DNA from: Naegleria gruberi
Taxonomy: Eukaryota
Direction: 5' to 3' (one strand)
Assembly (NCBI GenBank): GCA_000004985.1
Contig: GG738853.1
Length of the DNA: 64,000 bases
A program made the position numbers and the translations under genes. The notes below the pieces were generated by a model. It was not told the origin of the DNA, ran no database searches, and worked only from the letters and a program-made list of their open reading frames with translations. Positions 50,561 to 63,778 of the stretch are shown here, in pieces (position 1 is the stretch's first letter; every line of letters starts with the position of its first letter).

Positions 50561-53519
50561 ATGGCAACAGCAACCCTTTCAAATCATTCAGCTTATTCAG
50601 CAGCTGGTATTTTATCTTTGTTGGATGAAAATGATTTCGACCTTCAGGAAATGGCTCTTAGGAAGTTGGATCAAGTTGTGGATCAATACTGGGCCGAAAT
50701 TTCTGAATCCGTTCGTAAATTGTAAGTTGTATTAATACAACAAAAAGAGGAGGCTTACATAGTATTTCAATCATTTAATATTTGACGTGATGATCAATAT
50801 TGTATTAAATAATTTACCATAATCTAGGGAATCGTTGTATGAAAATGAAAAATTCCCAAATCGTGAATTAGCTGCTTTACTTACCTCCAAAGTGTATTAT
50901 CATCTTAACGAGTTTGATGAATCTTTACAATTTGCTCTTGGTGCTGGAAATTTATTTGATGTTAGTAAACAAGACGATGATGAATATGTTAATAAGATCA
51001 TCAGCAAGTGTATTGATACTTACATACAAACAAGACAAAACAATGGAAAGGAGGATCCAAGATTGACAAATATTGTAGAAAGAATGTTTGATAGATGTCT
51101 GCAAGAAGGTGAATATAAACAAGCTTTAGGAATTGCTATTGAAGCTAGAAGATTGGATAAAATAACTCAAGCTATCAAAATTTCACCAAATATCAAGGAA
51201 ATGCTTAACTATACATTTGATGTTGCTATGAATCTTATTGAATTAAGAGATTTTAGACATAATGTTTTGAAGCAATTAGTTGATATTTATATGGAAGATA
51301 AGGAAAATACTGACTACTTTGCAGTGACACAATGTTTAACATTTTTGGATGATGCTAAATCTGTTGCTAATATTTTACATCAATTAATTACATCCAATGA
51401 AGTTAATGATCATGCTATTGCTTATCAAATTGGATTTGATTTACACGATCGTGCACCACAACACTTTTTGGTTTCTGCTCGTGATGTACTTTTACAAGAT
51501 CCTAAGGCTGAGGAACAAGAAACACCTCTTGCTAAACTTTTAACTGTCCTTTCAGGAGAAATTACTATTCAACATAATGTTGACTTTTTACTCAGACACA
51601 ACCATACAGATCTTCAAATTCTTAACAATATCAAATCATCATTTGAAAGAAATTCTGTTCTCCATTCTGGTACAATTACATCCAATGCTTTTATGCATGC
51701 TGGTACAACTGTAGATAAATTCCTTAGAGATAATCTTGAATGGTTGGGTAAGGCCAATAATTGGGCTAAATTCAGTGCTACTGCCAGTTTGGGTGTTATT
51801 CAAAAGGGTAGAATTAAGGACAGTCTCACTATTTTGAAGCCATATCTTCCATCATCAGGTACTGCTTCTACCGCTAGTTCAAGTGTTTATTCTGAAGGTG
51901 GTGCTCTCTTTGGTTTGGGTATTATTCACTCTAATCATTTAGCTAATGATATGACTCAATATTTACTCAATGTTGTTTCTAATCAATCAGCTGATCCAGT
52001 TGTCCAACATGGTGCTTGTTTTGGTTTGGGTTTATGTGGTATGGCTACTCAAGAAGCAGAACTTTATGAAAAGATGAAGGATGTCATGTTTTTGGATAAT
52101 GCTGTTTCAGGTGAAGCTGCTGCTATTGGTATGGGTCTCGTTATGTTGGGAAGTGGTGATGATAAGGCCATTGATGAAATGTTGAACTATGCTCATGAAA
52201 CTGCTCACGAAAAGATTATTAGAGGTCTTGCCATGGGTTTGGCTTTAACTGTTTATGGTAGAGAAGAAGAAGGTAACAAGTTAATTGATAGATTGACTAA
52301 TGATAAGGATCCAATTCTCAGATATGGTGGAATGTACGCTATTGGTTTGGCATTTGCTGGTACTGGTAATAATAATGCTATCAGAAAATTGTTGCAAGTT
52401 GCTGTTTCTGATGTATCTGATGATGTCAGAAGAGCTGCTGTTATTAACTTGGGTTTCCTCCTCTTCAAGTCACCAAAACAATGTCCAAGAATTGTTTCTC
52501 TCCTCGCCGAAAGTTATAATCCTCATGTAAGATATGGTGTTGCTCTTGCTGTTGGTATTTCATGTGCTGGTTCTGGTTTAAAGGAAGCTTTGGATCTTTT
52601 GGAACCATTAGCTTTGGATAGAGTTGACTTTGTTCGTCAAGGTGCTCTCATTGCTCAATCAATGGTTTTGATGCAATTGAATGAAGTTCAAGAACCAAAG
52701 GTTGCTGATTTCCGTAAACATTTGCAAAAGACTTGGTCAACCAGAGCTGAAGAAGTTATGTGTAAATTAGGTTCAATCCTTTCTGCAGGTATTTTAGATG
52801 CTGGTGGTAGAAATGCTACAATTTGTTTGCACAGACATGGTAATAACAAGATGAGAAATATTGTTGGTCTTGCTCTCTTTACTCAATATTGGTTCTGGTA
52901 TCCATATTTACATTTCTTATCACTTTCTCTTGAACCAACTTCAATTATTGGTTTGAATACTGATTTGAAGATGCCATCCCAATTCACTTTCAAGAGTAAT
53001 CAAAAACCATCCATGTTTGCCTATCCACCTCCACTCAAGACTGAAGAAGAAAAGAAGGAAGTTACTGTTGGTCCTGTTGCTGAATTGTCTCTCTCTGCTA
53101 AGGCCAGAGTTAGAGAAGAAAGAAAGAGAAGAAGACCAGAAGGTAGTGCTACTCCTCTCCTCACTCCTCTTACTTCAACTCCAACACCACAAGTTGATCC
53201 AAAGCAACTACCATCACAACCTTCACAAACAGATAAGGATACAAAGAAACAAAAGAAGAAGAAGGAACCAACTTCTGAATCTCTTACAAATCCTGCTCGT
53301 GTAACACCTTCACAACTTAACTTTATTTCATTCGATACAACCAGTAGATATGTTCCTATCAAATTATCTTCTTCATCTGGTATCAATTTGGGTATTAACG
53401 TGCTCAGTGATACAAAACCAGGTGAAGATGCTGATATTTTAACACCTCAAGCTGGTCAAAAATCAGAAGAAAAGGAAGAAAATGAACCACAACCACCAGC
53501 AAGCTTTGAATGGAATTAA
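50561..53519 (+). CDS. psmD1: 26S proteasome regulatory subunit RPN2 (PSMD1). Exons are 50561..50721 and 50828..53519.
   Basis: '[54 protein letters not shown]|[26 protein letters not shown]' matches human PSMD1 '[67 protein letters not shown]'. The PC repeats and the C-terminal KEKE region are present. The intron is GTAAGT...ATCTAG, 106 nt. Confidence 0.92.
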
Positions 53520-53649: not shown

Positions 53650-54504
53650 TTAGCGGTTATTTTGATATAAATCTTTATTGATTCTTCTTTTTTGGAAAAA
53701 AGAATTCAGTTTCTTTAGCTTGTTTTCTTTCAATTTCTCAGCTTTCTTGACCGCCTTTTCTTGTTGTTTGGATGTAATGTCATCAATAGTACTACCAGAT
53801 TTATATGTGTCACTGGTCCTGGTGGCTTTGATAGCAATACAGTTTAAATCAGCAATGTTGTGAATAAATTCAACACCTTGGAGCCATTCCACTAAATTGA
53901 AATTTGAAGCACTTCTCAATCTTTTACAGACCTGAACAATAATGTAAGATTGAGCCAAGAGTATAGGATAACAACTACTTCTGAAATCTTTGTAACAAAA
54001 TGCATCTGGAATAGGAGCATCTACTTCTTCTCTGAATACTCTTTGAAGAAATGCCATACGATGTTTGAATTCTTTGTCGCCTGAATATTGTTCATTAGAA
54101 ACTGATAACAACAATTCAAAGATTTCATCTGTAGATAACTCATCATTAACTGATTCCCCAGTGATTGATTGATAGCAATCACAAAGGTAATTCTTCAAAG
54201 AAATACCCTCAGAATCTCTTTCTCTTTTGCCAATGAGGTTATCAACTTCTTTGCCATCTGAATCAGCATGTCTTAAGTTAAGAGAGGTAGCGAGAGCAGA
54301 AGCACCAGAGGACATATTTCTATTAACCTGTTGAGTTTCTTGGTTATTCAGTTGTTGACTGCTTGAAATATTGGATGCAGAATCTGCTTTACCGTAAATC
54401 TGTGCAGTGGAGCTACCAGAAGAAGTTGTGTCGGATTGAAGTTGTTTGAGATGAGATGGAGATGATCTTTTGTGTTTCTTCTTTGGAGTTCTGTTCTTGT
54501 TCAT
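53650..54504 (-). CDS. Hypothetical protein (284 aa) with a basic N-terminus, an S/Q-rich region and a KK-rich C-terminus
   Basis: It is a single ORF with no recognised domain. Confidence 0.35.
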   Translation of the reverse strand: MNKNRTPKKKHKRSSPSHLKQLQSDTTSSGSSTAQIYGKADSASNISSSQQLNNQETQQVNRNMSSGASALATSLNLRHADSDGKEVDNLIGKRERDSEGISLKNYLCDCYQSITGESVNDELSTDEIFELLLSVSNEQYSGDKEFKHRMAFLQRVFREEVDAPIPDAFCYKDFRSSCYPILLAQSYIIVQVCKRLRSASNFNLVEWLQGVEFIHNIADLNCIAIKATRTSDTYKSGSTIDDITSKQQEKAVKKAEKLKENKLKKLNSFFQKRRINKDLYQNNR

Positions 54505-54796: not shown

Positions 54797-55540
54797 ATGT
54801 CTTTACCATTCCATGACATTTCATTCTCCTTTGATTGTGAAAGTGTACACAATTCCGAGACTCATGGCCATATGAATCTGTACACTCACCTAAAAACAAG
54901 TAAATTCGATACAAATCAATCAAATTCTCTACAGGGATGGTGTTCTCCTATTCAACAACAAGAATTATTGCACCTCATCAGGAGTAAATTGGGAATTACT
55001 CGTAATTGTAACTTATCTTTGGTTTTTTCATGTGACGAGAATAGACCATTCGATTATTCACACTTCCACAATGTTCAAGCCAAATACAATCAACCAAATC
55101 TGATATTATTCGAAACAAATAGTGGATCAATATTTGGAGGATTTACCAGTAAAGCTTGGGTAAGACAACGATCAGACGTGGAGAATGTTAGAGATGAGCA
55201 TGCCTTTTTATTTTCCATCAACTTGAATCTTATCAGTGATTCTCCCTCATCATCAGTACAGAGCATCACCAATGAATCATGTGAACAATCCAACTTGCAC
55301 ATTTATGGATTGGCTCATTTCCAACAAAAAGTTGCCATTACAATTCTCGATGATGATAAGTATGGTGGAATAATGTTTGGCAGAGATACTCTCTTCATAT
55401 CGAATGATTGTACCAATCCTAACAAGGATTCATGCTCCCTCTATATTGATTCCAGAGAAGCTACCTACTGTAGAGGAGATGATGTTATTGAACTGGAGAA
55501 TTTCTACATTAAGAAACTTTCTTTCTATCACATTAAATAA
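54797..55540 (+). CDS. TLDc-domain protein
   Basis: 'ILFETNSGSIFGGFTSKAWVRQRSDV...DEHAFLFSINL...GIMFGRDTLFISNDCT...' has the TLDc signature (GG[FY]T..W....F.F.L), related to the C-terminus of the 21636..22832 protein. Confidence 0.5.
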   Translation: MSLPFHDISFSFDCESVHNSETHGHMNLYTHLKTSKFDTNQSNSLQGWCSPIQQQELLHLIRSKLGITRNCNLSLVFSCDENRPFDYSHFHNVQAKYNQPNLILFETNSGSIFGGFTSKAWVRQRSDVENVRDEHAFLFSINLNLISDSPSSSVQSITNESCEQSNLHIYGLAHFQQKVAITILDDDKYGGIMFGRDTLFISNDCTNPNKDSCSLYIDSREATYCRGDDVIELENFYIKKLSFYHIK

Positions 55541-55785: not shown

Positions 55786-58700
55786 ATGACATCCACTCTC
55801 TCTTATAACAAGGAACAATTGCTCAATTACTATAGAGCATCATGCCCTGAGATTCAAGAACCTCCAGAAAATTTAAAACAATTCCCACTTATTTTGTCTA
55901 CAAAATTACTTCAACCTGTAAATGAAACAAATCTTCACCTTTTCGATTCGGATTATGTAAGTTATAATTGTTGTTTGTTTATTAATTTAATATCATTTTG
56001 TTCAACATATTGTTATTTCAAAATAATACAACATTCGTCATGATGAATTTTTCTACAATAATTTCTTATTAATATCAACATATGATGATATGCTATAATG
56101 TATTACTAACAATAACACAAAAACACAAAACAACTTATCAATAATATAATAATACTAATTAACAATAATAGAATATTAATCCAGAATCCACTTTCCCTAC
56201 ACTTTCTACAAGAGGCAGAGGTCGTGGAGGAAGAGGAGGAAGTAGAAGAGGTGGTGGATTATCCTCAAGTGGCAGAGGTTCTTCAATTAGTCCCCTCGTA
56301 ACATCATCATTGGGCGGAAGTCCAAGTGGAACATCAAGCTTGTTTGGATCAAGTCCAACCTCTCTTGGAAGAGCTGGTACTCCAATAGGTTCAGGTCCAA
56401 GGGCTATTGCAAGATCACCACTTTCTCTTGGAGGTTCTAGACTTCCTGCTTGGGCCATGGATGAAGATCTGACACAAACAGACTCTTCACTCACTGGTTT
56501 AAACAATAATAGTAATTCACTTCTTTCAAACAATAGTTTCTTTGGAAATTCAACATCTAATTCATCTTTGGATGATGATACTTTTGGTCCTGGGGCTTTA
56601 CAACCACAATCATCTCATACATATCAACCAATGGTTTCACTTGAAAGTTTAGCTGCTGCTACAATGAAAATGAATGAACATTGGAAGACTCAAATGGGTA
56701 AGAAACCTCTTGATGACTTTGATGATTCTCTTGAGCCACAAGGATTAAATGATAATGACGGTGCTATTGAAGCTATTGATTGGGATTCTCAATGGTACTA
56801 TCTTTCCGAAGATAATGAGCCAAAAGGTCCTTATAATTTGCAAAAATTGAAGGAATGGATGGATTTATTCTATCTCCAATCTGAAACTAGAATCAAACAA
56901 GATATTGAATCTCATGCAACAACTACATTGGGAGAAGTTTTGAACAGTTTAACTCAACAAAACAATTCTCACATGAATCATGGAATGGGTAACAATATTT
57001 TGGCTTCTCAACATTTGCTATCCAACAATGGTATGAAGGGCAATATGCATTCCAATGACTTTTTCATGAATGATAAGCCAAGCATTCCAACTGGAAGTAT
57101 TTTGGGCTCTCCTTTCATGTCTCAATCTCTTGTAAAGTCTCCTATTCAAGGATCTTTGCTTTCCTCGTTGGATAAGCCACAACAACCAACACCAATTACT
57201 CCAACAAGTCAACAATTTTCTCATCCTTGGGGATTTGGACAACAACCAATGGAACAAATGGTTCATCCAGGATATCCATTTGTTAATCCAAACATGCCAA
57301 ATCATTTCATGCCACCATTCCATCAAGGACCAGGTCACTGGGGTAACATGCCAAACTTGGCTATGAATTTGGGTGCCTCCAATAATAGTAATAGCATTCC
57401 AAGCGTTACTGATATTGAAAATGAATTACTCTATGTTCAACCAAGTATTCCACAACATCCTACTCATCAAGAAGTTTTCCAACATTACACTCCTATTCAA
57501 CCTATTAGTAATGTTCAAGAACAAATGGTTGTTGAAGAGCAAGAACCTATTGATGAAGAAGAAGATATTGACACTGAACAAGTAGTCGAAACACCAGTTG
57601 AAGAAGAAACTCAAATTCCACAAAAGGAAGAAACTATTGCTCAAGAAACTCCAAAGGTTGATGACAAGACCTCAAAGAAGGAAAAGAACAAAAAGAAGGG
57701 AGCTGAAGCTAAACCAGCTAACACACCAAGCAAGAAGAAGCAAGAATTGCCACCTGTCAAGGAAGAACCAGTTTTCAAATCTGTTCCACCAACTGAAACT
57801 GTTAGTTTTGCTGATCCAAAGAAGGAAGAAGTTAAAGGATGGGGAGTCCAACCAGCTGTTACTACTGCTCCTGTTCAAACTTTGAAGCAAATTATGGAAC
57901 AACAAAAGAAGGAAGCCCTCAAGCAAAGTAAGGAAACTCAACAAAAGAAGAAGGAAGCTGCTGAACAAGTTATCAAAGTTAATACAGCCAATCCATGGGG
58001 AGTTGCCAATGCTAATGTTGTTGCTCCATCTCTTAAGGAAATTCAAGAAGAAGAAGCAAAGAAGAAGAAACAAAAGGCTCAAAAGCAACAACAATCTCAA
58101 AATCAAGCTTCTGTTGTTAAGAATGCTAGTTCAACTTGGGGAGGAAGTGCTCTTCAATTTAAGGCAATCCCTGAAAAGGACGTTCCATCTACCTCATCTT
58201 CATCTACCCATTTTGGAGCTGTTACTCCAACTAAGACTGTTGAAACCAAGTCATTCCAATTCCAAGCTATTAAGCCTCAAACTATTCCAGCTTCTACCTC
58301 TTCTACTTCTCCAAAGGAAGAAGAGGAAGACCAAGAAGAAGGTGTCTTCTGGGATTACAGCCCAACTCCAGCCAATGCTGCTACTAATCCAGTAATTACT
58401 ACTGCCTCTGAAAAGAAGAATAGCAAGAAGGATAAAAAGAAGAAGGCAACCAATGAAAAGCCAACTACAACCACTAGTCAAACAACCACCAGCGTCAATA
58501 CTCCAAGCAATACTGCTGTTGAAGAAGATTTCCCATCCATTTCTGCAAAGAATAATCCATTTGGCCAAGCAGATGTTTCTCAAGAATTCAAGGACTGGTT
58601 CAAGAAGGGTTTGAAGAAATTGAACAAGTCTGTTGATCCATCATTCATGTACTTCTTGTTGTCCCTCAACTCTGAAAAGGAAACTATTGACTACATGTCA

Positions 58701-58805
58701 GAATATATTGGTAATTCCTCAGCTGCTCAAAAGTTTGCTCAAGAATTCATTGCCAACAAGTCATTCGAAAATCCAAATCAAGGAGCTAATAAGAAGAAGA
58801 AATAA
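55786..58805 (+). CDS. GYF-domain protein of the GIGYF type. Exons are 55786..55956 and 56172..58805. It carries an N-terminal 4EHP-binding-like motif, an RGG box, a GYF domain and a K/E/Q-rich C-terminal half.
   Basis: Exon 1 'MTSTLSYNKEQLLNYY...' contains a YxxxxLL motif (the canonical 4EHP-binding site is YXYX4LΦ). A GTAAGT donor at 55957 joins it through a 215-nt intron, with acceptor AATAG at 56171, in frame to 'NINPESTFPTLSTRGRGRGGRGGSRRGGG...' (RGG). The GYF domain is 'IDWDSQWYYLSEDNEPKGPYNLQKLKEWMDLFYLQSETRIKQD'. Confidence 0.65.
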
Positions 58806-58810
58806 ATTTA

Positions 58811-59680
58811 TTAATCACTGTCGTGCTCAACGATTTGCATTCTTGACATTCTGCTCTTGGCTCTTTTATCTGTGACTGCTTCTTGAGGTTCTTTGGATTT
58901 GGATTTTGGTTTAGAGTTCTTTTCGGAATTGGTTTTGTTTGATGAGATTTCAACTTTTTGTTCGAATTCAATTTCCTTAGTATCTAAATCATATTCCGAA
59001 AGTTTCTTGTACACATCAATTTCCATAACAGGGGCTGTTTTCTTTATAGTTGGTTGTGGACTTTTGACAAAGTCTCCAACCTTTGCCCATTCCTGTTCCA
59101 ATTCCTCAATATTCTTTGGTTTATCACTCCTAGCTTCATTGTTACTGCTATGAATGTTCCAAAAGTCCACATCTGTAGAAAAGAATTGTTTTTCAAATTC
59201 CGAAGGTGGTGGAAGTCCTGAAGAGAAGATATTTTCATCGTCACTATCCTGATCTTCTATTGAGGGAAGAATTCTATTAACTTCCTTATGCATTTGTTTG
59301 TATTTCGACCTGAGATTTTCAGCTTGTTTTCTCTTTGTTTCCTCATAATTATTTGGTGAGGTTGGTTTTGTTTTACCACCGATATAATTCCATTTCCCCC
59401 AGTCTAAGGCAGCGTACCTTGCCCTGCAAATATCGGGTGTAAAAATTTGAGGTTCTATATTCACTAACTCCTTTTCATAAACTGACTTGAGAAATACAAT
59501 AAATTTCTGAAAAGAGCCAGCAACTCTCACAAAATCAAAATCATGAACCTCGACCAATCGCATCAATTGCTCATTCATTTCTACAATACACTCTCTTGTT
59601 TGATTTACATAGGGTTTCTCCGAGTTACTTAGATGATTTGTTTCCTCTTGATGATGAAGACGTTCCTTAGCAAGTACCAT
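58811..59680 (-). CDS. Hypothetical protein (289 aa) with an acidic/serine-rich C-terminal half
   Basis: It is a single ORF, convergent with the GYF gene with a 5-nt gap between stop codons. No family was recognised. Confidence 0.35.
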   Translation of the reverse strand: MVLAKERLHHQEETNHLSNSEKPYVNQTRECIVEMNEQLMRLVEVHDFDFVRVAGSFQKFIVFLKSVYEKELVNIEPQIFTPDICRARYAALDWGKWNYIGGKTKPTSPNNYEETKRKQAENLRSKYKQMHKEVNRILPSIEDQDSDDENIFSSGLPPPSEFEKQFFSTDVDFWNIHSSNNEARSDKPKNIEELEQEWAKVGDFVKSPQPTIKKTAPVMEIDVYKKLSEYDLDTKEIEFEQKVEISSNKTNSEKNSKPKSKSKEPQEAVTDKRAKSRMSRMQIVEHDSD

Positions 59681-59917: not shown

Positions 59918-62900
59918 TTACTTCATATCCTTCAGCTCGACATATTTAAATAATGCAGTATTGGGTAGAAGTGTATCTTTCTTCTCACTAATGTCTTGCA
60001 TTTGTCTCTTGATGAGTAGGAGGCAATTAAGAATGGTTTCAAAGGTTGGACGTACTCGATAATCATCTGCCCAACAAGATTTCATTAATTCCAAATATTC
60101 ACTCACCAACAGTCCAATGCTATCTTTCTGAGTGGGATAGGTTTTGAATTCTGGCATGAATTCTTCAAGCCATTCCATCTTTTCCTCCTCACTGAATGGA
60201 ATTAGCGGTCTTTCACCTTGCATGACACGAGCTAGGACTGTGAATGGAGTTTTTGGATCTGCATTCAAGGAATTTCTCTTTTGATTAGAGTGGAATTTGT
60301 GGAGCTTGTAGGACTTTCCGTTCATGTATGGGTTGTCCTCAAAGAACATTTCCCACATTATAATACTGAAACTGAAAACATCCTTTTGAGATTTGTAAAT
60401 ATTATAATTGAGTAATAATGTACTTACAACTGCCGTAGTGATCATATTGTTATCATTATTTCCGTCATCTGATTTCATAACTTCTGGAGCTATATAGAAT
60501 AATGTGCCTACGCATGTTGTGGTTGTGTGGCAAGTATTGGACATGATCTTACTCAATCCAAAATCACACACTTTACAAATTCCTTTAGAATCAATTAAAA
60601 TATTAGCAGGTTTCAAATCTCTGAGAATAGAAAGAGTGAATATCAAGTAATCTAAGCTCACTTACCTGTGAATAATTTTCAAACTATGCAGATATACCAT
60701 TCCACAAGTGATATCGATGAGAGTATTCAATTTTTGAATGAAGGAAATTTGAGTAGGATTTTCTGTTCTTCTCATTTCATTAATTAGCTTTTCTAAACTT
60801 CCCTTCTCCAAATATTCGACAACCAAATATTGTTTGTGGAGACTAATAGAAATACCATAGAATAGTACAATATTAGGATGTCTAAGTTTACATAATAGAG
60901 CCGCTTCCTTTTCAATCTCATCAGAATCCATACTTCCAGACGAAGTAGTGTCAATTCTCAAGCATTTAACTGCGACAGCATTATGGTGCCATTTACCTAA
61001 ATAGACAACTCCTGATCCTCCTTCTCCAATTTTTTTCTCCAAAAATATTTGATCTATACTAATGACAAAACTGTTCTTCTTATCATGGCTGTGCTGATGA
61101 CCTGGTTCATTGAGAGAAATATACTCATTCTCCAATAGTCTCTTCTCAATGTCCTTCTCAGCCTTATCTCGTTGCACCCAATACAGAACCTTCCTTCCTG
61201 CCTTTACACAGACACAAATGACTAGAGACAATATAAGGAGTGATAAAGCAAATACTACAATAGTCACGCACACAGCTACAATGATTATATAATCAGTAGG
61301 TGTATTCTCTTTACAAATGTAGGAAGATGAGTGTGACAGATAGTTAGCTTGGTTAATACTGAATCCATTTGGGCAGGGGATTACGTTGATGGTCAACTCG
61401 GTACTAGTTCTTAAAAAAGTGAGCTTGGCTCTAATTTTAGTCGGTACGAATGTGGAATTTGAAGCAGTAACAAACATGTTGTTGAAATCTGCGCTAGTTG
61501 AGAGTGAAAAGCTCTCAGGGTTAGTTGTAGTGACAAAACTTTCCTTGCATGTAAAAAACTGATTGCCTACAAAGTCGGTAAAGGTTGGAGTAAATGAAAA
61601 CGCTTGACCTGGATATAAAGTCATTTCAGTTTGCTTGGCATCTCTTGATATTGGTCCCCAGTCAACTGATTTAATTGGTGTGGAAATGTCATTACCATGA
61701 CTAGTAGCAGAGTTTCCTGTAATTGTATTGGTTTTAGTGTCGAGCTCCAAGTCATTTAGCGAGAAGAAAATTCCACCACCAGAATAGACAGCCTTATTGT
61801 TGATAACTGTGTTATTGACAAACTTGGCAGCTGGGTCTGGGGTGAAGATTCTCAGTGATATTGCCCCACCAGAAACAGCAGAATTCCTTTCAAATCTATT
61901 AGAAACCAATTCAATTTCAGATCCAGTATTGCTTGAATCAAAGTAAATAGCACCACCATATCCTTTGCATATTTCTCTATTGCAATTCACAATATCTTTT
62001 GATACCACTGAGTTCTCTATGAATGTTGTGGTGACAATTGACATGGTATCATGTGACAGAGCAGCTCCTCCAGAATACAGAGCCCTATTACCAATGAAAA
62101 GGCAATCTTCCAAATGAAGTCCATATCGAGAGTAGATAGCTCCCCCTATTGTTGCATAATTGTCTTTGAATTGACACATTGAAAACAATACTGGTGTGTA
62201 GCTGATATAAATGGCACCACCACCCACATTGCTTGCTCTATTTCTAATAAAGGAGCACCCAGTAAAATATGAAAGAGATCCATATGTATACTCCTCATTG
62301 GTAAATGAAATAGCTCCATATGAACCACTGTTATTGATAAAGGAAACATTGTTCATTAGGACAGAGGAAACTTGATTCAATCTGAGAGAGCTAAAGTCTG
62401 CTACATTATTCTCAAACACAGAGTCTACCACAGCGAGACTTCTAATATTTCTAAGTTGGACATTATTTCCAGCAATACCTGCAATCCCATTAGAAACAAT
62501 CATTTCATAAATTGCGGCCATGGCTGTCTGCTCAATTCTTAATGATGATTTTCCAATGTATCTATCAAAAGTCATTGCAAAAATGACAGCAACTTTACAA
62601 TATGAAACTCTCAGAATTGGAAGATTTTCGCGTGGGGATTCTACCAATTCAATGCTAGCTTTATATGCTGCAAATTCATCCACATCCTGAAATAATAAAT
62701 ATCCTCCAACTCTCAGTACTGACTCATAAAGCCATACTGACGTAATGGACGAGAATACATCATTCTTTTGAATTGGTAAACTCGAATTACTAATAATTAA
62801 GGTTTTAAAATTTTTAAATACCAAATGATTCAACACTTCCACTTGTACATTGTGAAAAAAGGCACTTGTGACAACACCTGTTGGATCCCCTAATATTAAT

Positions 62901-63778
62901 CCGAGATGACCTTTAGAATTTACATTAATCAACGCAACAGACTCATAAATACTATTCAGTGTAGTATTGTTCAATACAGCATCCCTGATCACAACACAAC
63001 CCAAAACAAATGTATTATAAAGAGATATGCCATTAAAAATCATGTAAACTTTCGGATTGGGAGTATAATGCAATAAATATGCATTATTACAATTAACAAT
63101 CTTATTTTCTCCATGAATTTGGTAAATGATCGTGTAATCTAATGAATACATTTTCATAAGAAAGTTCAATTCAACTATTCCAGTACAAGATGCACTCGGC
63201 ACATCAGTTGCCAACAAGATATCAATCACAACAAGTGCAATTGGAATTTTTGTGTTATTGGCCTCATTATAAATATCCAATAATTTTGTTGTTAAATCTG
63301 TAATTATTTGTTTTCCAATTTTTGTAAAAGTATTACATCCAATCACACAATCCATATATTCCGAATCTGGAGTATCGGCAACATAGACATAACTTAATTT
63401 CTGATAGGCACATCTACCCTTCTGTACAAAATAACAATCTGTAATCCTCCTCTCTGTAAAGGTATCCACCTCATATTTGACATAATTTATACCTGCTTTC
63501 ATGTATCGTGGAGTAAGATATAGAGTTTGATGATCTAGTTTTTCGGTGGGTGAAAAAACTGGATTATTATTGTTTGTAGAGGCTACATTAATTATAGTAT
63601 TAGTAGTGTTACTACTAATCGGAGTGATGAAATTATTTACAAATACTAGTATTACTAGAATGATGGTAAAAAGTTTCGAATAATAAATACATGGTTTCGA
63701 ATAATTTATAAAAGGAATGATGATGGTGTGAGGGAATTTATTCCATGCATCAATGTTAATGAGATTTAAATTTCGCAT
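59918..63778 (-). CDS. Receptor-type TKL protein kinase. It has a signal/anchor, about 800 aa of right-handed parallel beta-helix (PbH1 / pectin-lyase-like) ectodomain, a single TM and a cytoplasmic kinase. Exons are 63778..60666 and 60620..59918.
   Basis: The ectodomain has repeated 'N.x.N.AxxGGAI' beta-helix rungs ('NRFERNSAVSGGAISL', 'NNKAVYSGGGIFF', 'GNRALYSGGAALS'). The TM is 'IIIVAVCVTIVVFALSLLILSLVICVCV'. The kinase has 'IGEGGSGVVYLGKW...AVK' and 'IIHR|DLKPANILI...DFGLSK...APE'. A 45-nt intron (GTAAGT...TCTCAG) splits the HRD motif in phase. Confidence 0.75.

What the first reader, a model, noticed from the sequence alone, without database searches (positions are those of the whole stretch)
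55786..58805. GIGYF-type translational repressor candidate with the full motif set
The two-exon gene encodes a YxxxxLL motif at the extreme N-terminus (the canonical eIF4E2/4EHP site is YXYX4LΦ), an RGG box, a canonical GYF domain and a long K/E/Q-rich tail. This is the 4EHP-GIGYF architecture. The 215-nt intron sits exactly between the 4EHP motif and the RGG box.
Basis: partly seen in the sequence, partly recalled or inferred. Interest (0 to 1): 0.5.

Follow-up and report, generated by a model that had tools for sequence, protein, structure and literature searches.

The report
Naegleria GIGYF-family translational repressor gene
This is the already annotated Naegleria gruberi gene for a GIGYF/Smy2/EXA1-type adaptor protein, an ordinary member of a family found across eukaryotes, whose layout suggests it links an eIF4E-type cap-binding protein to mRNA-bound partners to silence translation.

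Summary
The two-exon gene is real. The spliced 934-aa product is identical to N. gruberi XP_002680480.1 (NAEGRDRAFT_57247, UniProt "GYF domain-containing protein"). N. fowleri, Willaertia magna and a fourth relative keep exon 1 and a phase-0 GTAAGT intron at the same codon. Exon 1 is under strong purifying selection.

The protein belongs to the GIGYF family:
- A profile search reaches named GIGYF2 (oyster) and GYF proteins of nematode, red and green algae and Rhizaria.
- The C-terminal domain and the GYF domain are collinear with oyster GIGYF2.
- The GYF region is predicted to fold like Smy2/GIGYF-type GYF domains.
- The N-terminal YNKEQLLNYY fits a motif found in 14 of 31 family members, against 0.14 expected by chance.
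- It has the GIGYF-type aromatic residue at position +9.
- A Gly/Arg box follows it, as in GIGYF1/2.

Corrections to the finding:
- The GYF domain is not canonical. It has GPY and FYL, and scores 21.5 bits against Pfam's 25.7 cut-off.
- The first Tyr of YXYX4LΦ is absent.
- No 4EHP-class partner has been shown in Naegleria, which has six unclassified eIF4E paralogues.

Verdict: a new, uncharacterised member of a known kind. Interest is low to moderate.

The parts
55786..55956 (+). Exon 1 (aa 1-57): the whole candidate eIF4E-family-binding region
   Evidence: ATG at 55786, with the donor GT at 55957. It is conserved at 69-80% identity in three relatives. Synonymous sites are saturated (pS 0.69-0.89) while pN is 0.10-0.19.
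55804..55833 (+). Canonical 4E-binding-type motif Y7-NKEQ-L12-L13-N-Y-Y16, with an aromatic residue at +9
   Evidence: Y7, K9, Q11, L13 and Y16 are invariant in four species. The regex [YF]x[KR]xxΦLx(1,2)Φ is found upstream of the GYF domain in 14 of 31 family members, against 0.14 expected. Position +9 is aromatic in 14 of 18 members, as at Y50 of GIGYF1 and F52 of GIGYF2 (PMC5538437).
55882..55917 (+). F33-PLILSTKLLQ-P44: candidate non-canonical and first auxiliary element
   Evidence: F33, I36, L37, L41, L42, Q43 and P44 are invariant in four species. The F..IL....L.P pattern and spacing resemble F67..I70 L71..P78 of human GIGYF2, using the residue numbers in PMC5538437. Similar LLPV/LPPV blocks occur in Spongospora, Leptophrys and Steinernema. 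This is a manual alignment and is not statistically significant.
55957..56171 (+). Intron: 215 nt, phase 0, GTAAGT...TAG
   Evidence: GC is 19%. TACTAAC lies at 56104-56110 and TACTAAT at 56153-56159. An intron sits at the identical codon position in L001 (67 nt), L002/N. fowleri (315 nt) and L003/W. magna (44 nt). All have GTAAGT...[TC]AG.
56172..58805 (+). Exon 2 (aa 58-934, plus the stop codon)
   Evidence: The frame is open from 56172. The first in-frame ATG is M153, so the conserved RGG region needs an upstream start.
56211..56258 (+). RGG box, R71-G86 (RGRGRGGRGGSRRGGG)
   Evidence: Nearly invariant in four species. In GIGYF1/2 a Gly/Arg-rich stretch directly follows the 4EHP-binding region (PMC5538437), and the same is seen in oyster GIGYF2.
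56442..56588 (+). MBM-like motif: L148-P-A-W151-A-M-D-E ... D191-D-D-T-F195-G196
   Evidence: LPAWA.D and D.DTFG are invariant in four species. P[EAD]W[A/F].D recurs in family members, for example oyster LPEWSMPD...GTFDSSGAF, Steinernema KPEWADD, and P0060 VPDWAMD. Compare the PEW + FDx4F Me31B/DDX6-binding motif (PMC6771390). The spacing here is 44 aa, against about 12.
56634..56678 (+). Conserved block V212-SLESLAAATMKMNE-226
   Evidence: [VF]SLES[LM].AAT.KMNE.WK is conserved in four species. It aligns with FDFEKMAAATQKM in P0090, P0097 and P0114, so it sits where those relatives have a true FDF motif. Function is inferred only.
56781..56963 (+). Divergent Smy2/GIGYF-type GYF domain (about aa 261-321)
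   Evidence: Pfam GYF scores 21.5 bits, below the 25.7 cut-off; orthologues reach E=3e-7. The best sequence match in the PDB is the GIGYF2 GYF domain, 7rup, E=0.012. The AF2 model has pLDDT 79. Foldseek top hits are 1wh2, Smy2 3fma and GIGYF2 7rup at E about 5e-4, while CD2BP2 scores only E=0.57.
57513..58574 (+). Acidic, then K/E/Q-rich low-complexity tail, with conserved WG and SLKEIQEEE-type repeats and the FWD motif
   Evidence: The conserved islands are KGWG, TLKQIMEQQKKEA, NPWG, PSLKEIQEEEAKKKKQ, STWG and FWDY. The same elements appear in oyster GIGYF2 (SLLEIQEQEE, TLLEIQEEQRK, SAWGG, GFWDD) and are aligned by BLASTP.
58575..58769 (+). C-terminal family domain (aa 859-923), predicted four-helix bundle
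   Evidence: This is the most widely conserved part: 135 of 144 profile hits match it. It aligns with the C-terminus of oyster GIGYF2 (FSQWCDKALKALN...[40 protein letters not shown]). AF2 predicts four helices with pLDDT 85-90 in the core. A weak TRI4_N hit is seen in 4 of 4 orthologues.

Best explanation
The locus is the Naegleria gruberi orthologue (NAEGRDRAFT_57247) of the GIGYF/Smy2/EXA1 family of cytoplasmic adaptor proteins.

Shown here:
- The two-exon gene model.
- Family membership.
- A conserved modular layout, in this order: (1) an N-terminal 57-aa exon that encodes a Yx4LΦ helix motif with a GIGYF-type aromatic residue at +9, followed by a conserved F..IL....L.P segment; (2) a Gly/Arg box; (3) a PAW...DDTFG motif; (4) a divergent Smy2-type GYF domain; (5) a K/E/Q-rich region with WG islands; (6) a C-terminal helical domain.

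Inferred from the animal and plant relatives:
- Module 1 clamps an eIF4E-family cap-binding protein, one of six paralogues in N. gruberi, on its dorsal and lateral surfaces. This keeps that protein from engaging eIF4G.
- The GYF domain docks proline-rich (PPGΦ-like) RNA-associated proteins, which choose the target mRNAs.
- The PAW/DDTFG motif recruits the single Dhh1/DDX6 helicase.
- Together these produce transcript-specific translational repression, and probably decay.
For: Gene model:
- The spliced product is identical to RefSeq XP_002680480.1.
- The same intron position occurs in four species.
- Exon 1 shows pN 0.10-0.19 against pS 0.69-0.89.

Family:
- The profile search gives 234 hits at E<1e-3. 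Of the top 150, 35 have both a GYF domain and the C-terminal domain.
- Named members include Magallana gigas GIGYF2, and GYF proteins of Steinernema, Rhodosorus, Spongospora, Paulinella, Leptophrys and Ostreobium.
- BLASTP against oyster GIGYF2 is collinear, with E=4e-16 and E=0.005.
- The predicted GYF fold matches Smy2-type domains.

eIF4E-binding region:
- The motif is enriched, 14 of 31 members against 0.14 expected.
- Position +9 is aromatic in 14 of 18 members. This matches the GIGYF-specific feature described in PMC5538437.
- The Gly/Arg box follows, as in GIGYF1/2.

Partners exist in N. gruberi: six eIF4E homologues and one Dhh1 are listed in PMC5862402 S3.

Plant EXA1 has the same combination of an N-terminal eIF4E-binding motif and a GYF domain, and interacts with eIF4E1 (PMC5403212).
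Against: - No binding, expression or repression data exist for this protein.
- The N-terminal region shows no statistically significant sequence similarity to the crystallised GIGYF 4EHP-binding peptides or to distant family members. The correspondence rests on a short motif plus manual alignment.
- The regex used for the enrichment test was written after seeing some of the sequences.
- The GYF ligand groove is altered: G561->F, F563->L, L567->T and D540->S in GIGYF2 numbering. PPGΦ binding is therefore not assured.
- The PAW-to-TFG spacing is 44 aa, against about 12 in animals, and the second Phe of FDx4F is not conserved.
- No class II eIF4E is documented in Naegleria.
Confidence: 0.7

Rival explanations
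1. Same protein family, but the partner of the N-terminal motif is the general class-I-like eIF4E. The protein would then act as a 4E-BP-like competitor of eIF4G, as reported for plant EXA1 with eIF4E1, rather than with a dedicated 4EHP-like repressive paralogue.
For: - The motif is the generic Yx(K)xxLΦ, without the first Tyr of YXYX4LΦ.
- EXA1 interacted with eIF4E1 and eIF4E1B in split-luciferase assays (PMC5403212).
- The PLAL auxiliary motif that contacts 4EHP-specific residues R103 and E149 is not conserved beyond its Pro.
- Excavate eIF4Es were reported not to fall into class II.
Against: - Position +9 is an invariant Tyr, not the R/K/Q that contacts eIF4E N77 in 4E-BPs. In the human structures this aromatic residue is the GIGYF-type feature.
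- N. gruberi has six eIF4E paralogues, which leaves room for a specialised one. XP_002682429.1 has a deletion where human W56 lies.
- According to PMC5538437, the first Tyr is not a specificity determinant.
Confidence: 0.3
2. A Smy2/Syh1-like GYF adaptor whose conserved N-terminus does not bind any eIF4E. It would act only through GYF-ligand and other contacts, for example in mRNA surveillance, ribosome-collision responses or Cdc48-related functions.
For: - Family members have 4EHP-independent activities (titles and abstracts of PMC6009589 and PMC9638028).
- Sequence similarity of the N-terminus to solved 4EHP-binding peptides is not significant.
- Of 31 family members, 17 lack a detectable motif.
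Against: - Exon 1 is the best conserved part of the protein, at 69-80% identity against 39-53% overall.
- It carries every residue of the extended motif Yx(R/K)xxLΦ in a helix-compatible context.
- Many of the motif-less family members are probably N-terminally truncated ORF calls.
Confidence: 0.12
3. Gene-model artefact: ORF 55786..56043 is a separate small ORF or untranslated, and the real protein starts inside exon 2.
For: No transcript data were available here. A prokaryote-style caller splits the gene (P0001, P0005).
Against: - The first ATG in the exon-2 frame is M153. That would discard the invariant RGG box and the open, conserved 56172-56628 region.
- Splice sites and phase are conserved in four species, with intron lengths of 44-315 nt.
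- dN<<dS in exon 1.
- Exon 1 is identical in a second assembly, while the read-through diverges straight after the donor (P0005).
- Three independent annotations use the junction.
Confidence: 0.02

Closest known systems
Animal GIGYF1/GIGYF2 (and Drosophila GIGYF)
   Same: The order of modules is the same: an N-terminal Yx4LΦ helix with an aromatic residue at +9, a hydrophobic F..I/V element and a Pro-containing segment, then a Gly/Arg-rich stretch, a P-x-W + TF(D/G) motif, a Smy2-type GYF domain, a Q/E/K-rich region with SLxEIQ and WG islands, FWD, and the C-terminal helical domain (PMC5538437; PMC6771390).
   Different: - There is no first Tyr (LxYx4LL).
- The PLAL motif is reduced to its Pro.
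- The motif reads PAW, not PEW, and lies 44 aa from TFG.
- The GYF signature is degenerate (GPY, FYL; Ser instead of the Smy2-class Asp).
- Long coiled-coil E/R repeats are absent.
- The terminal 'LGF...GEIE' tail seen in oyster, Steinernema and several protist members is absent.
- Overall identity is detectable only in the GYF domain and the C-terminus.
Arabidopsis EXA1/MUSE11 (plant GYF protein)
   Same: It has a predicted N-terminal eIF4E-binding motif plus a Smy2-type GYF domain. It is cytosolic, associates with ribosomes and eIF4E, and acts as a translational repressor (PMC5403212).
   Different: EXA1 is 1714 aa, with its GYF domain at 546-603. It was not compared directly here, because no plant sequence was retrieved.
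Yeast Smy2/Syh1
   Same: The predicted GYF fold is close to the Smy2 GYF domain, 3fma/3k3v (E about 5e-4 to 2e-3).
   Different: S. cerevisiae has no class II eIF4E (PMC3388326). From my own knowledge, Smy2/Syh1 are not known to use an eIF4E-binding motif. Their sequences were not examined here.
Trypanosomatid EIF4E1-4EIP repressive pair (own knowledge, not tested here)
   Same: It is a discoban example of a Yx4LΦ-containing partner that turns an eIF4E paralogue into a repressor. In that sense it is a functional analogue of 4EHP-GIGYF.
   Different: To my knowledge 4EIP has no GYF domain. No homology to the Naegleria protein was tested or seen.

Membership tests
GIGYF/Smy2-type GYF adaptor family | GYF domain fold of the Smy2 subclass | tested here: met
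   The AF2 model of aa 243-322 has pLDDT 78.9. Foldseek top hits are At5g08430 (1wh2), Smy2 (3fma) and GIGYF2 (7rup) at E 4e-4 to 6e-4. CD2BP2 (1gyf) scores only E=0.57. All four orthologues hit PF02213, best E=3e-7.
GIGYF/Smy2-type GYF adaptor family | GYF sequence signature GPF-x4-[M/V/I]-x2-W-x3-GYF, passing the Pfam gathering score | tested here: not met
   N. gruberi has GPY-x4-L-x2-W-x3-FYL. PF02213 scores 21.5 bits, below the 25.7 cut-off. Of the six GIGYF2 groove residues (Y538, F549, W557, Y562, F563, L567), the equivalents here are Y, Y, W, Y, L, T.
GIGYF/Smy2-type GYF adaptor family | Smy2-subclass Asp (D540 of GIGYF2) in place of the CD2BP2-class Trp | tested here: not met
   The aligned residue is S269 (Ser or Thr in the orthologues). 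It is neither Asp nor Trp. A small residue should leave the Φ pocket open, but that is inference.
GIGYF/Smy2-type GYF adaptor family | Conserved C-terminal helical domain (W-C/F...F[VL].FL...Y...Y[LV]G...FA..F) | tested here: met
   BLASTP against oyster GIGYF2 gives E=4e-16 over aa 677-921. Of 144 profile hits, 135 match this domain.
4EHP-GIGYF repressor complex | N-terminal canonical motif YXYX4LΦ | tested here: inconclusive
   Y7-x4-L12-L13 is present and conserved. The first Tyr is replaced by L, I, A or N in the four heteroloboseans. PMC5538437 states that this Tyr is not a specificity determinant, and 4E-BP1 has Ile there.
4EHP-GIGYF repressor complex | Aromatic residue at position +9 of the extended motif (Y50 in GIGYF1, F52 in GIGYF2), instead of R/K/Q | tested here: met
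   Y16 is invariant in four species. Position +9 is aromatic in 14 of 18 family members.
4EHP-GIGYF repressor complex | Non-canonical Phe element and the invariant PLAL auxiliary motif | tested here: inconclusive
   F33..I36 L37 and P44 align by hand with F67..I70 L71 and P78, with a 2-residue longer linker. 'LAL' is not conserved (QPVNE). HMM searches are not significant.
4EHP-GIGYF repressor complex | Me31B/DDX6-binding motif (PEW + FDx4F) | tested here: inconclusive
   LPAWAMDE and DDDTFG are invariant among the orthologues. The spacer is 29-44 aa, and the second aromatic residue is variable. W. magna fits F-G-x4-F. A profile search against the PDB found nothing.
4EHP-GIGYF repressor complex | Presence of, and physical binding to, a class II eIF4E (4EHP) | not testable with these tools
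   The N. gruberi proteome could not be searched. The literature lists six eIF4E homologues, none assigned to class II. There is no eIF4E gene in the window.
4EHP-GIGYF repressor complex | Gly/Arg-rich stretch directly after the 4E-binding region | tested here: met
   RGRGRGGRGGSRRGGG lies at aa 71-86, 14 residues after exon 1, and is conserved. It is described for GIGYF1/2 in PMC5538437.

The most novel reading that the evidence does not exclude
The complete GIGYF repressor scaffold was already assembled before Discoba diverged from other eukaryotes. That scaffold comprises the 4E-binding region with the +9 aromatic residue and Pro clamp, the Gly/Arg box, the DDX6 motif, the GYF domain and the C-terminal domain. 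In Naegleria it would pair with an atypical eIF4E paralogue that is not class II by the W43/W56 rule but is functionally a 4EHP. A candidate is XP_002682429.1, which lacks the W56 segment. If so, '4EHP-like' repressive cap-binding proteins would be older and more diverse than the class II definition captures.
Probability: 0.35. Interest if true: 0.45.

Novelty: new member of a known kind. Interest (0 to 1): 0.25.

Why it matters
The gene itself is ordinary. It is already in RefSeq and UniProt as a hypothetical or GYF-domain protein, and the family is known to be pan-eukaryotic.

The modest value is evolutionary. A heterolobosean, from a lineage far from animals, plants and fungi, keeps the full GIGYF layout. 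This includes the GIGYF-type aromatic residue at +9 of the eIF4E-binding helix and a DDX6-motif-like element. That argues the adaptor's mode of action is ancestral.

It also gives a concrete handle on which of Naegleria's six unclassified eIF4E paralogues is a repressive one: the 57-aa exon-1 peptide can be used as bait. No paper in the searchable library mentions both Naegleria and GYF.

Tried and rejected
- phmmer of aa 1-86, and an HMM of four N-termini, against all PDB chains, to reach the crystallised GIGYF1/2 4EHP-binding peptides. Only chance matches appeared (ubiquitin-RGG, selenoprotein M).
- The same N-terminal HMM against 144 family hits. The best i-E was 0.2. Eight of the weak hits did align the Yx4L\u03a6 motif in register, so I switched to a regex enrichment test.
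- A profile of the PAW...SLESL region against the PDB. No DDX6-motif peptide was found.
- The search for homologous proteins with the C-terminal alignment returned nothing at E<=0.01, not even the source proteins. This is unexplained and looks like a limitation of the word index.
- The first full-length search scored only 8000 candidates and found 4 relatives.
The accepted alignment, A1, had exon 1 in only 2 of 4 rows.
- Foldseek of the C-terminal domain model against the PDB gave no match better than E=2. The weak TRI4_N/ASC-1 sequence resemblance therefore could not be confirmed structurally.
- I considered budding-yeast origin, because of the TACTAAC in the intron. I rejected it once the homologues proved to be Naegleria and Willaertia.
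- I ran no further search on eIF4E. Its ranked output would be swamped by animal sequences.
Full report
**Observation.** The region reads as the first-stage reader described.
- An ATG at 55786 opens 57 codons ending ...LHLFDSDY.
- A GTAAGT donor follows at 55957. The next 215 nt are 19% GC (exons 33-39%) and hold several in-frame stops.
- The intron ends TAG at 56171, and the frame continues from 56172 to the stop at 58803-58805.
- The spliced product is 934 aa.
- It contains Y7-NKEQ-L12-L13, RGRGRGGRGGSRRGGG (aa 71-86), a WYY...GPY...W...FYL segment (aa 265-292) and a long K/E/Q-rich tail.
- In shuffles of the protein, a Yx4L[LMIVF] site appears somewhere in 20% of cases, but within the first 20 residues in only 0.5%. 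The motif alone is weak evidence. Its position and conservation are what count.

**Organism and prior annotation.**
- A protein search found four relatives: a 99% identical partial ORF, two ENA proteins (53% and 43% identity), and a Willaertia magna protein.
- A cluster look-up showed that the 99% cluster contains Naegleria gruberi XP_002680480.1/EFC47736.1 (NAEGRDRAFT_57247). UniProt D2V601 names it 'GYF domain-containing protein'.
- That protein is identical to the spliced model. The window is therefore N. gruberi, and the two-exon model is the public one.
- My independent reconstruction from locus L002 equals N. fowleri CAG4715875.1. The one from L003 equals the W. magna annotation.

**The exon 1-exon 2 join.**
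- In L001, L002 and L003, exon 1 is found upstream of the called ORF and ends FD[ST]DY. A GTAAGT...[TC]AG intron of 67, 315 or 44 nt follows, and exon 2 starts NINP[ED].
- Position and phase are identical in all four species, while intron length and sequence are free to vary.
- Over the 51 ungapped codons of exon 1, synonymous sites are saturated (pS 0.69-0.89) and pN is 0.10-0.19.
- Exon 1 is the best conserved part of the protein, at 69-80% identity against 39-53% overall.
- Without exon 1 the first Met would be M153, which would drop the invariant RGG box.
- A second assembly has an identical exon 1, and its read-through diverges immediately after the donor (P0005).
- The RPN2 gene lies upstream in N. 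gruberi, N. fowleri and W. magna, which supports orthology.

**Family membership.**
- An exhaustive HMMER profile search of 1.84 billion representatives gave 234 hits at E<1e-3.
- Most hits match the C-terminal about 100 positions. With local HMMs, 135 of 144 hits match the C-terminal domain, and 35 have both a GYF domain and the C-terminal domain.
- Named members include Magallana gigas 'GRB10-interacting GYF protein 2', and GYF-domain proteins of Steinernema, Rhodosorus (red alga), Ostreobium (green alga), and Spongospora, Paulinella and Leptophrys (Rhizaria).
- BLASTP of the Naegleria protein against oyster GIGYF2 aligns aa 677-921 with 993-1200 (E=4e-16). That stretch includes SLKEIQEEE/TLLEIQEEQ, STWGG/SAWGG, FWD and the terminal helical domain. 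The GYF domain aligns upstream of it (E=0.005).

**GYF domain.**
- It is real, but not canonical. PF02213 scores 21.5 bits, below the 25.7 gathering cut-off.
- The orthologues score up to E=3e-7. The best PDB sequence match is the GIGYF2 GYF domain (7rup, E=0.012).
- An AlphaFold2 model (pLDDT 78.9; \u03b2-\u03b2-\u03b1-\u03b2-\u03b1) finds GYF domains of the Smy2 subclass first: 1wh2, 3fma, 7rup and 7ruq, at E 4e-4 to 2e-3. The CD2BP2 type scores only E about 0.6.
- I mapped the GIGYF2 ligand groove (Y538, F549, W557, Y562, F563, L567; D540; PMC10187677) through the alignment. Naegleria has Y267, Y278, W286, Y291, L292 and T296, with S269 for D540. The proline-stacking core is kept, and the \u03a6 pocket is altered.

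**N-terminal eIF4E-binding-type region.**
- Sequence searches with this region against PDB chains and against distant family members are not significant.
- A motif written from the Naegleria sequence, [YF]x[KR]xx[LMIVF]Lx(1,2)[LFYMIR], occurs upstream of the GYF domain in 14 of 31 family members. Those members were selected through other domains. Shuffling gives 0.14 expected, with a maximum of 3 in 1000 shuffles. The regex was tuned after inspection, but the excess is far beyond what tuning could produce.
- Peter et al. (PMC5538437) report three relevant points. First, GIGYF1/2 differ from 4E-BPs in having an aromatic residue at position 9 of the extended motif (Y50/F52) instead of R/K/Q. Second, this residue packs on the invariant Pro of the PLAL auxiliary motif. 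Third, the first Tyr of YXYX4L\u03a6 is not a specificity determinant.
- Naegleria has an invariant Tyr at +9 (Y16). Fourteen of 18 family members are aromatic there. A subgroup of four has Arg.
- Downstream, F33-x2-I36-L37-x4-L42-x-P44 can be aligned by hand with F67, I70, L71, L76 and P78 of GIGYF2, with a 2-residue longer linker. Similar LLPV/LPPV blocks occur in Spongospora, Leptophrys and Steinernema.
- The Gly/Arg box then follows, as in GIGYF1/2.

- LPAWA[ML]D[ED], followed 29-44 residues later by D[DE]DTFG, is invariant among the four orthologues.
- It resembles LPEW...GTFDSSGAF of oyster GIGYF2, KPEWADD...GSFDDDGNF of Steinernema, and P[EAD]W[AF].D in other members. That is the PEW + FDx4F Me31B/DDX6-binding motif (PMC6771390).
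- The next block, [VF]SLES[LM]AAAT.KMNE, sits where a stramenopile-like subgroup has FDFEKMAAATQKM.
- N. gruberi has one Dhh1/DDX6 homologue (PMC5862402 supplement).
- The C-terminal domain is predicted as a four-helix bundle with no solved structural neighbour.

**The partner.**
- Whether a 4EHP exists in Naegleria could not be tested. PMC5862402 lists six N. gruberi eIF4E homologues and states that excavate eIF4Es do not fall into metazoan classes I-III.
- Reviews of protist and fungal eIF4Es do not cover Naegleria.
- The one sequence given, XP_002682429.1, has a deletion where human W56 lies.
- The window holds no eIF4E gene.

**Mechanism.**
- Shown: the gene model, family membership and the conserved modules.
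[quoted passage not shown] The GYF domain binds proline-rich RNA-associated proteins. The PAW/DDTFG motif binds Dhh1. Together they repress selected mRNAs.
- I put about 0.9 on family membership, about 0.65 on eIF4E-family binding, and about 0.35 on the partner being a dedicated 4EHP-like paralogue.

**Verdict.** The finding is correct and its interpretation is essentially right. What it describes is an uncharacterised orthologue of a well-known, pan-eukaryotic adaptor family, already annotated as a GYF-domain protein. It is a new member of a known kind, and interest is low to moderate.

Noticed in passing
window 58575-58769 (aa 859-923): The C-terminal four-helix domain is the most widely conserved part of the family. 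It gives weak, sub-threshold hits to Pfam TRI4_N (the N-terminal domain of TRIP4/ASC-1) in all four heterolobosean orthologues (best E=6e-4), and to PDB 8alz (E=0.35). Foldseek of the model against the PDB found nothing.
   Followed up: partly
family hits P0090, P0094, P0097, P0114 (not in window): A subgroup of family members has Arg at +9 of the motif (RYTREKLL[AS][LM]R), which is the 4E-BP-type extended motif. These members also carry a true FDF followed by KMAAAT, where Naegleria has [VF]SLES[LM]AAAT. This suggests two flavours of eIF4E-binding region within one family.
   Followed up: partly
window 50835-53519 (+), 53650-54504 (-), 54797-55540 (+): The proteasome RPN2 gene is the upstream neighbour of the GYF gene in N. 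gruberi, N. fowleri (L002) and W. magna (L003). Only N. gruberi has two extra genes in between: one with no Pfam hit, and one TLDc-domain protein.
   Followed up: partly
window 59918-63778 (-): This is a receptor-like protein kinase with Chlamydia-PMP-type repeats in the N-terminal part. Its kinase domain is interrupted by an in-frame stop at 60662-60664, between ...LKIIHR and DLKPANIL. The likeliest cause is a short in-frame intron.
   Followed up: no
window 56104-56110 and 56153-56159: The 215-nt intron contains a perfect yeast-type TACTAAC 61 nt from the acceptor, and a TACTAAT 12 nt from it. Which one serves as branch point is unknown.
   Followed up: no
literature, not in window (PMC5862402 supplements): N. 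gruberi is listed with six eIF4E homologues and one Dhh1. The eIF4E XP_002682429.1 has a 7-9-residue deletion spanning the position of human W56, so it is an atypical cap-binding protein and a candidate partner.
   Followed up: partly
window 58811-59680 (-): A convergent downstream ORF of 289 aa ends only 6 nt from the stop codon of the GYF gene and has no Pfam match. The 3' UTRs of the two genes must overlap or be extremely short.
   Followed up: no
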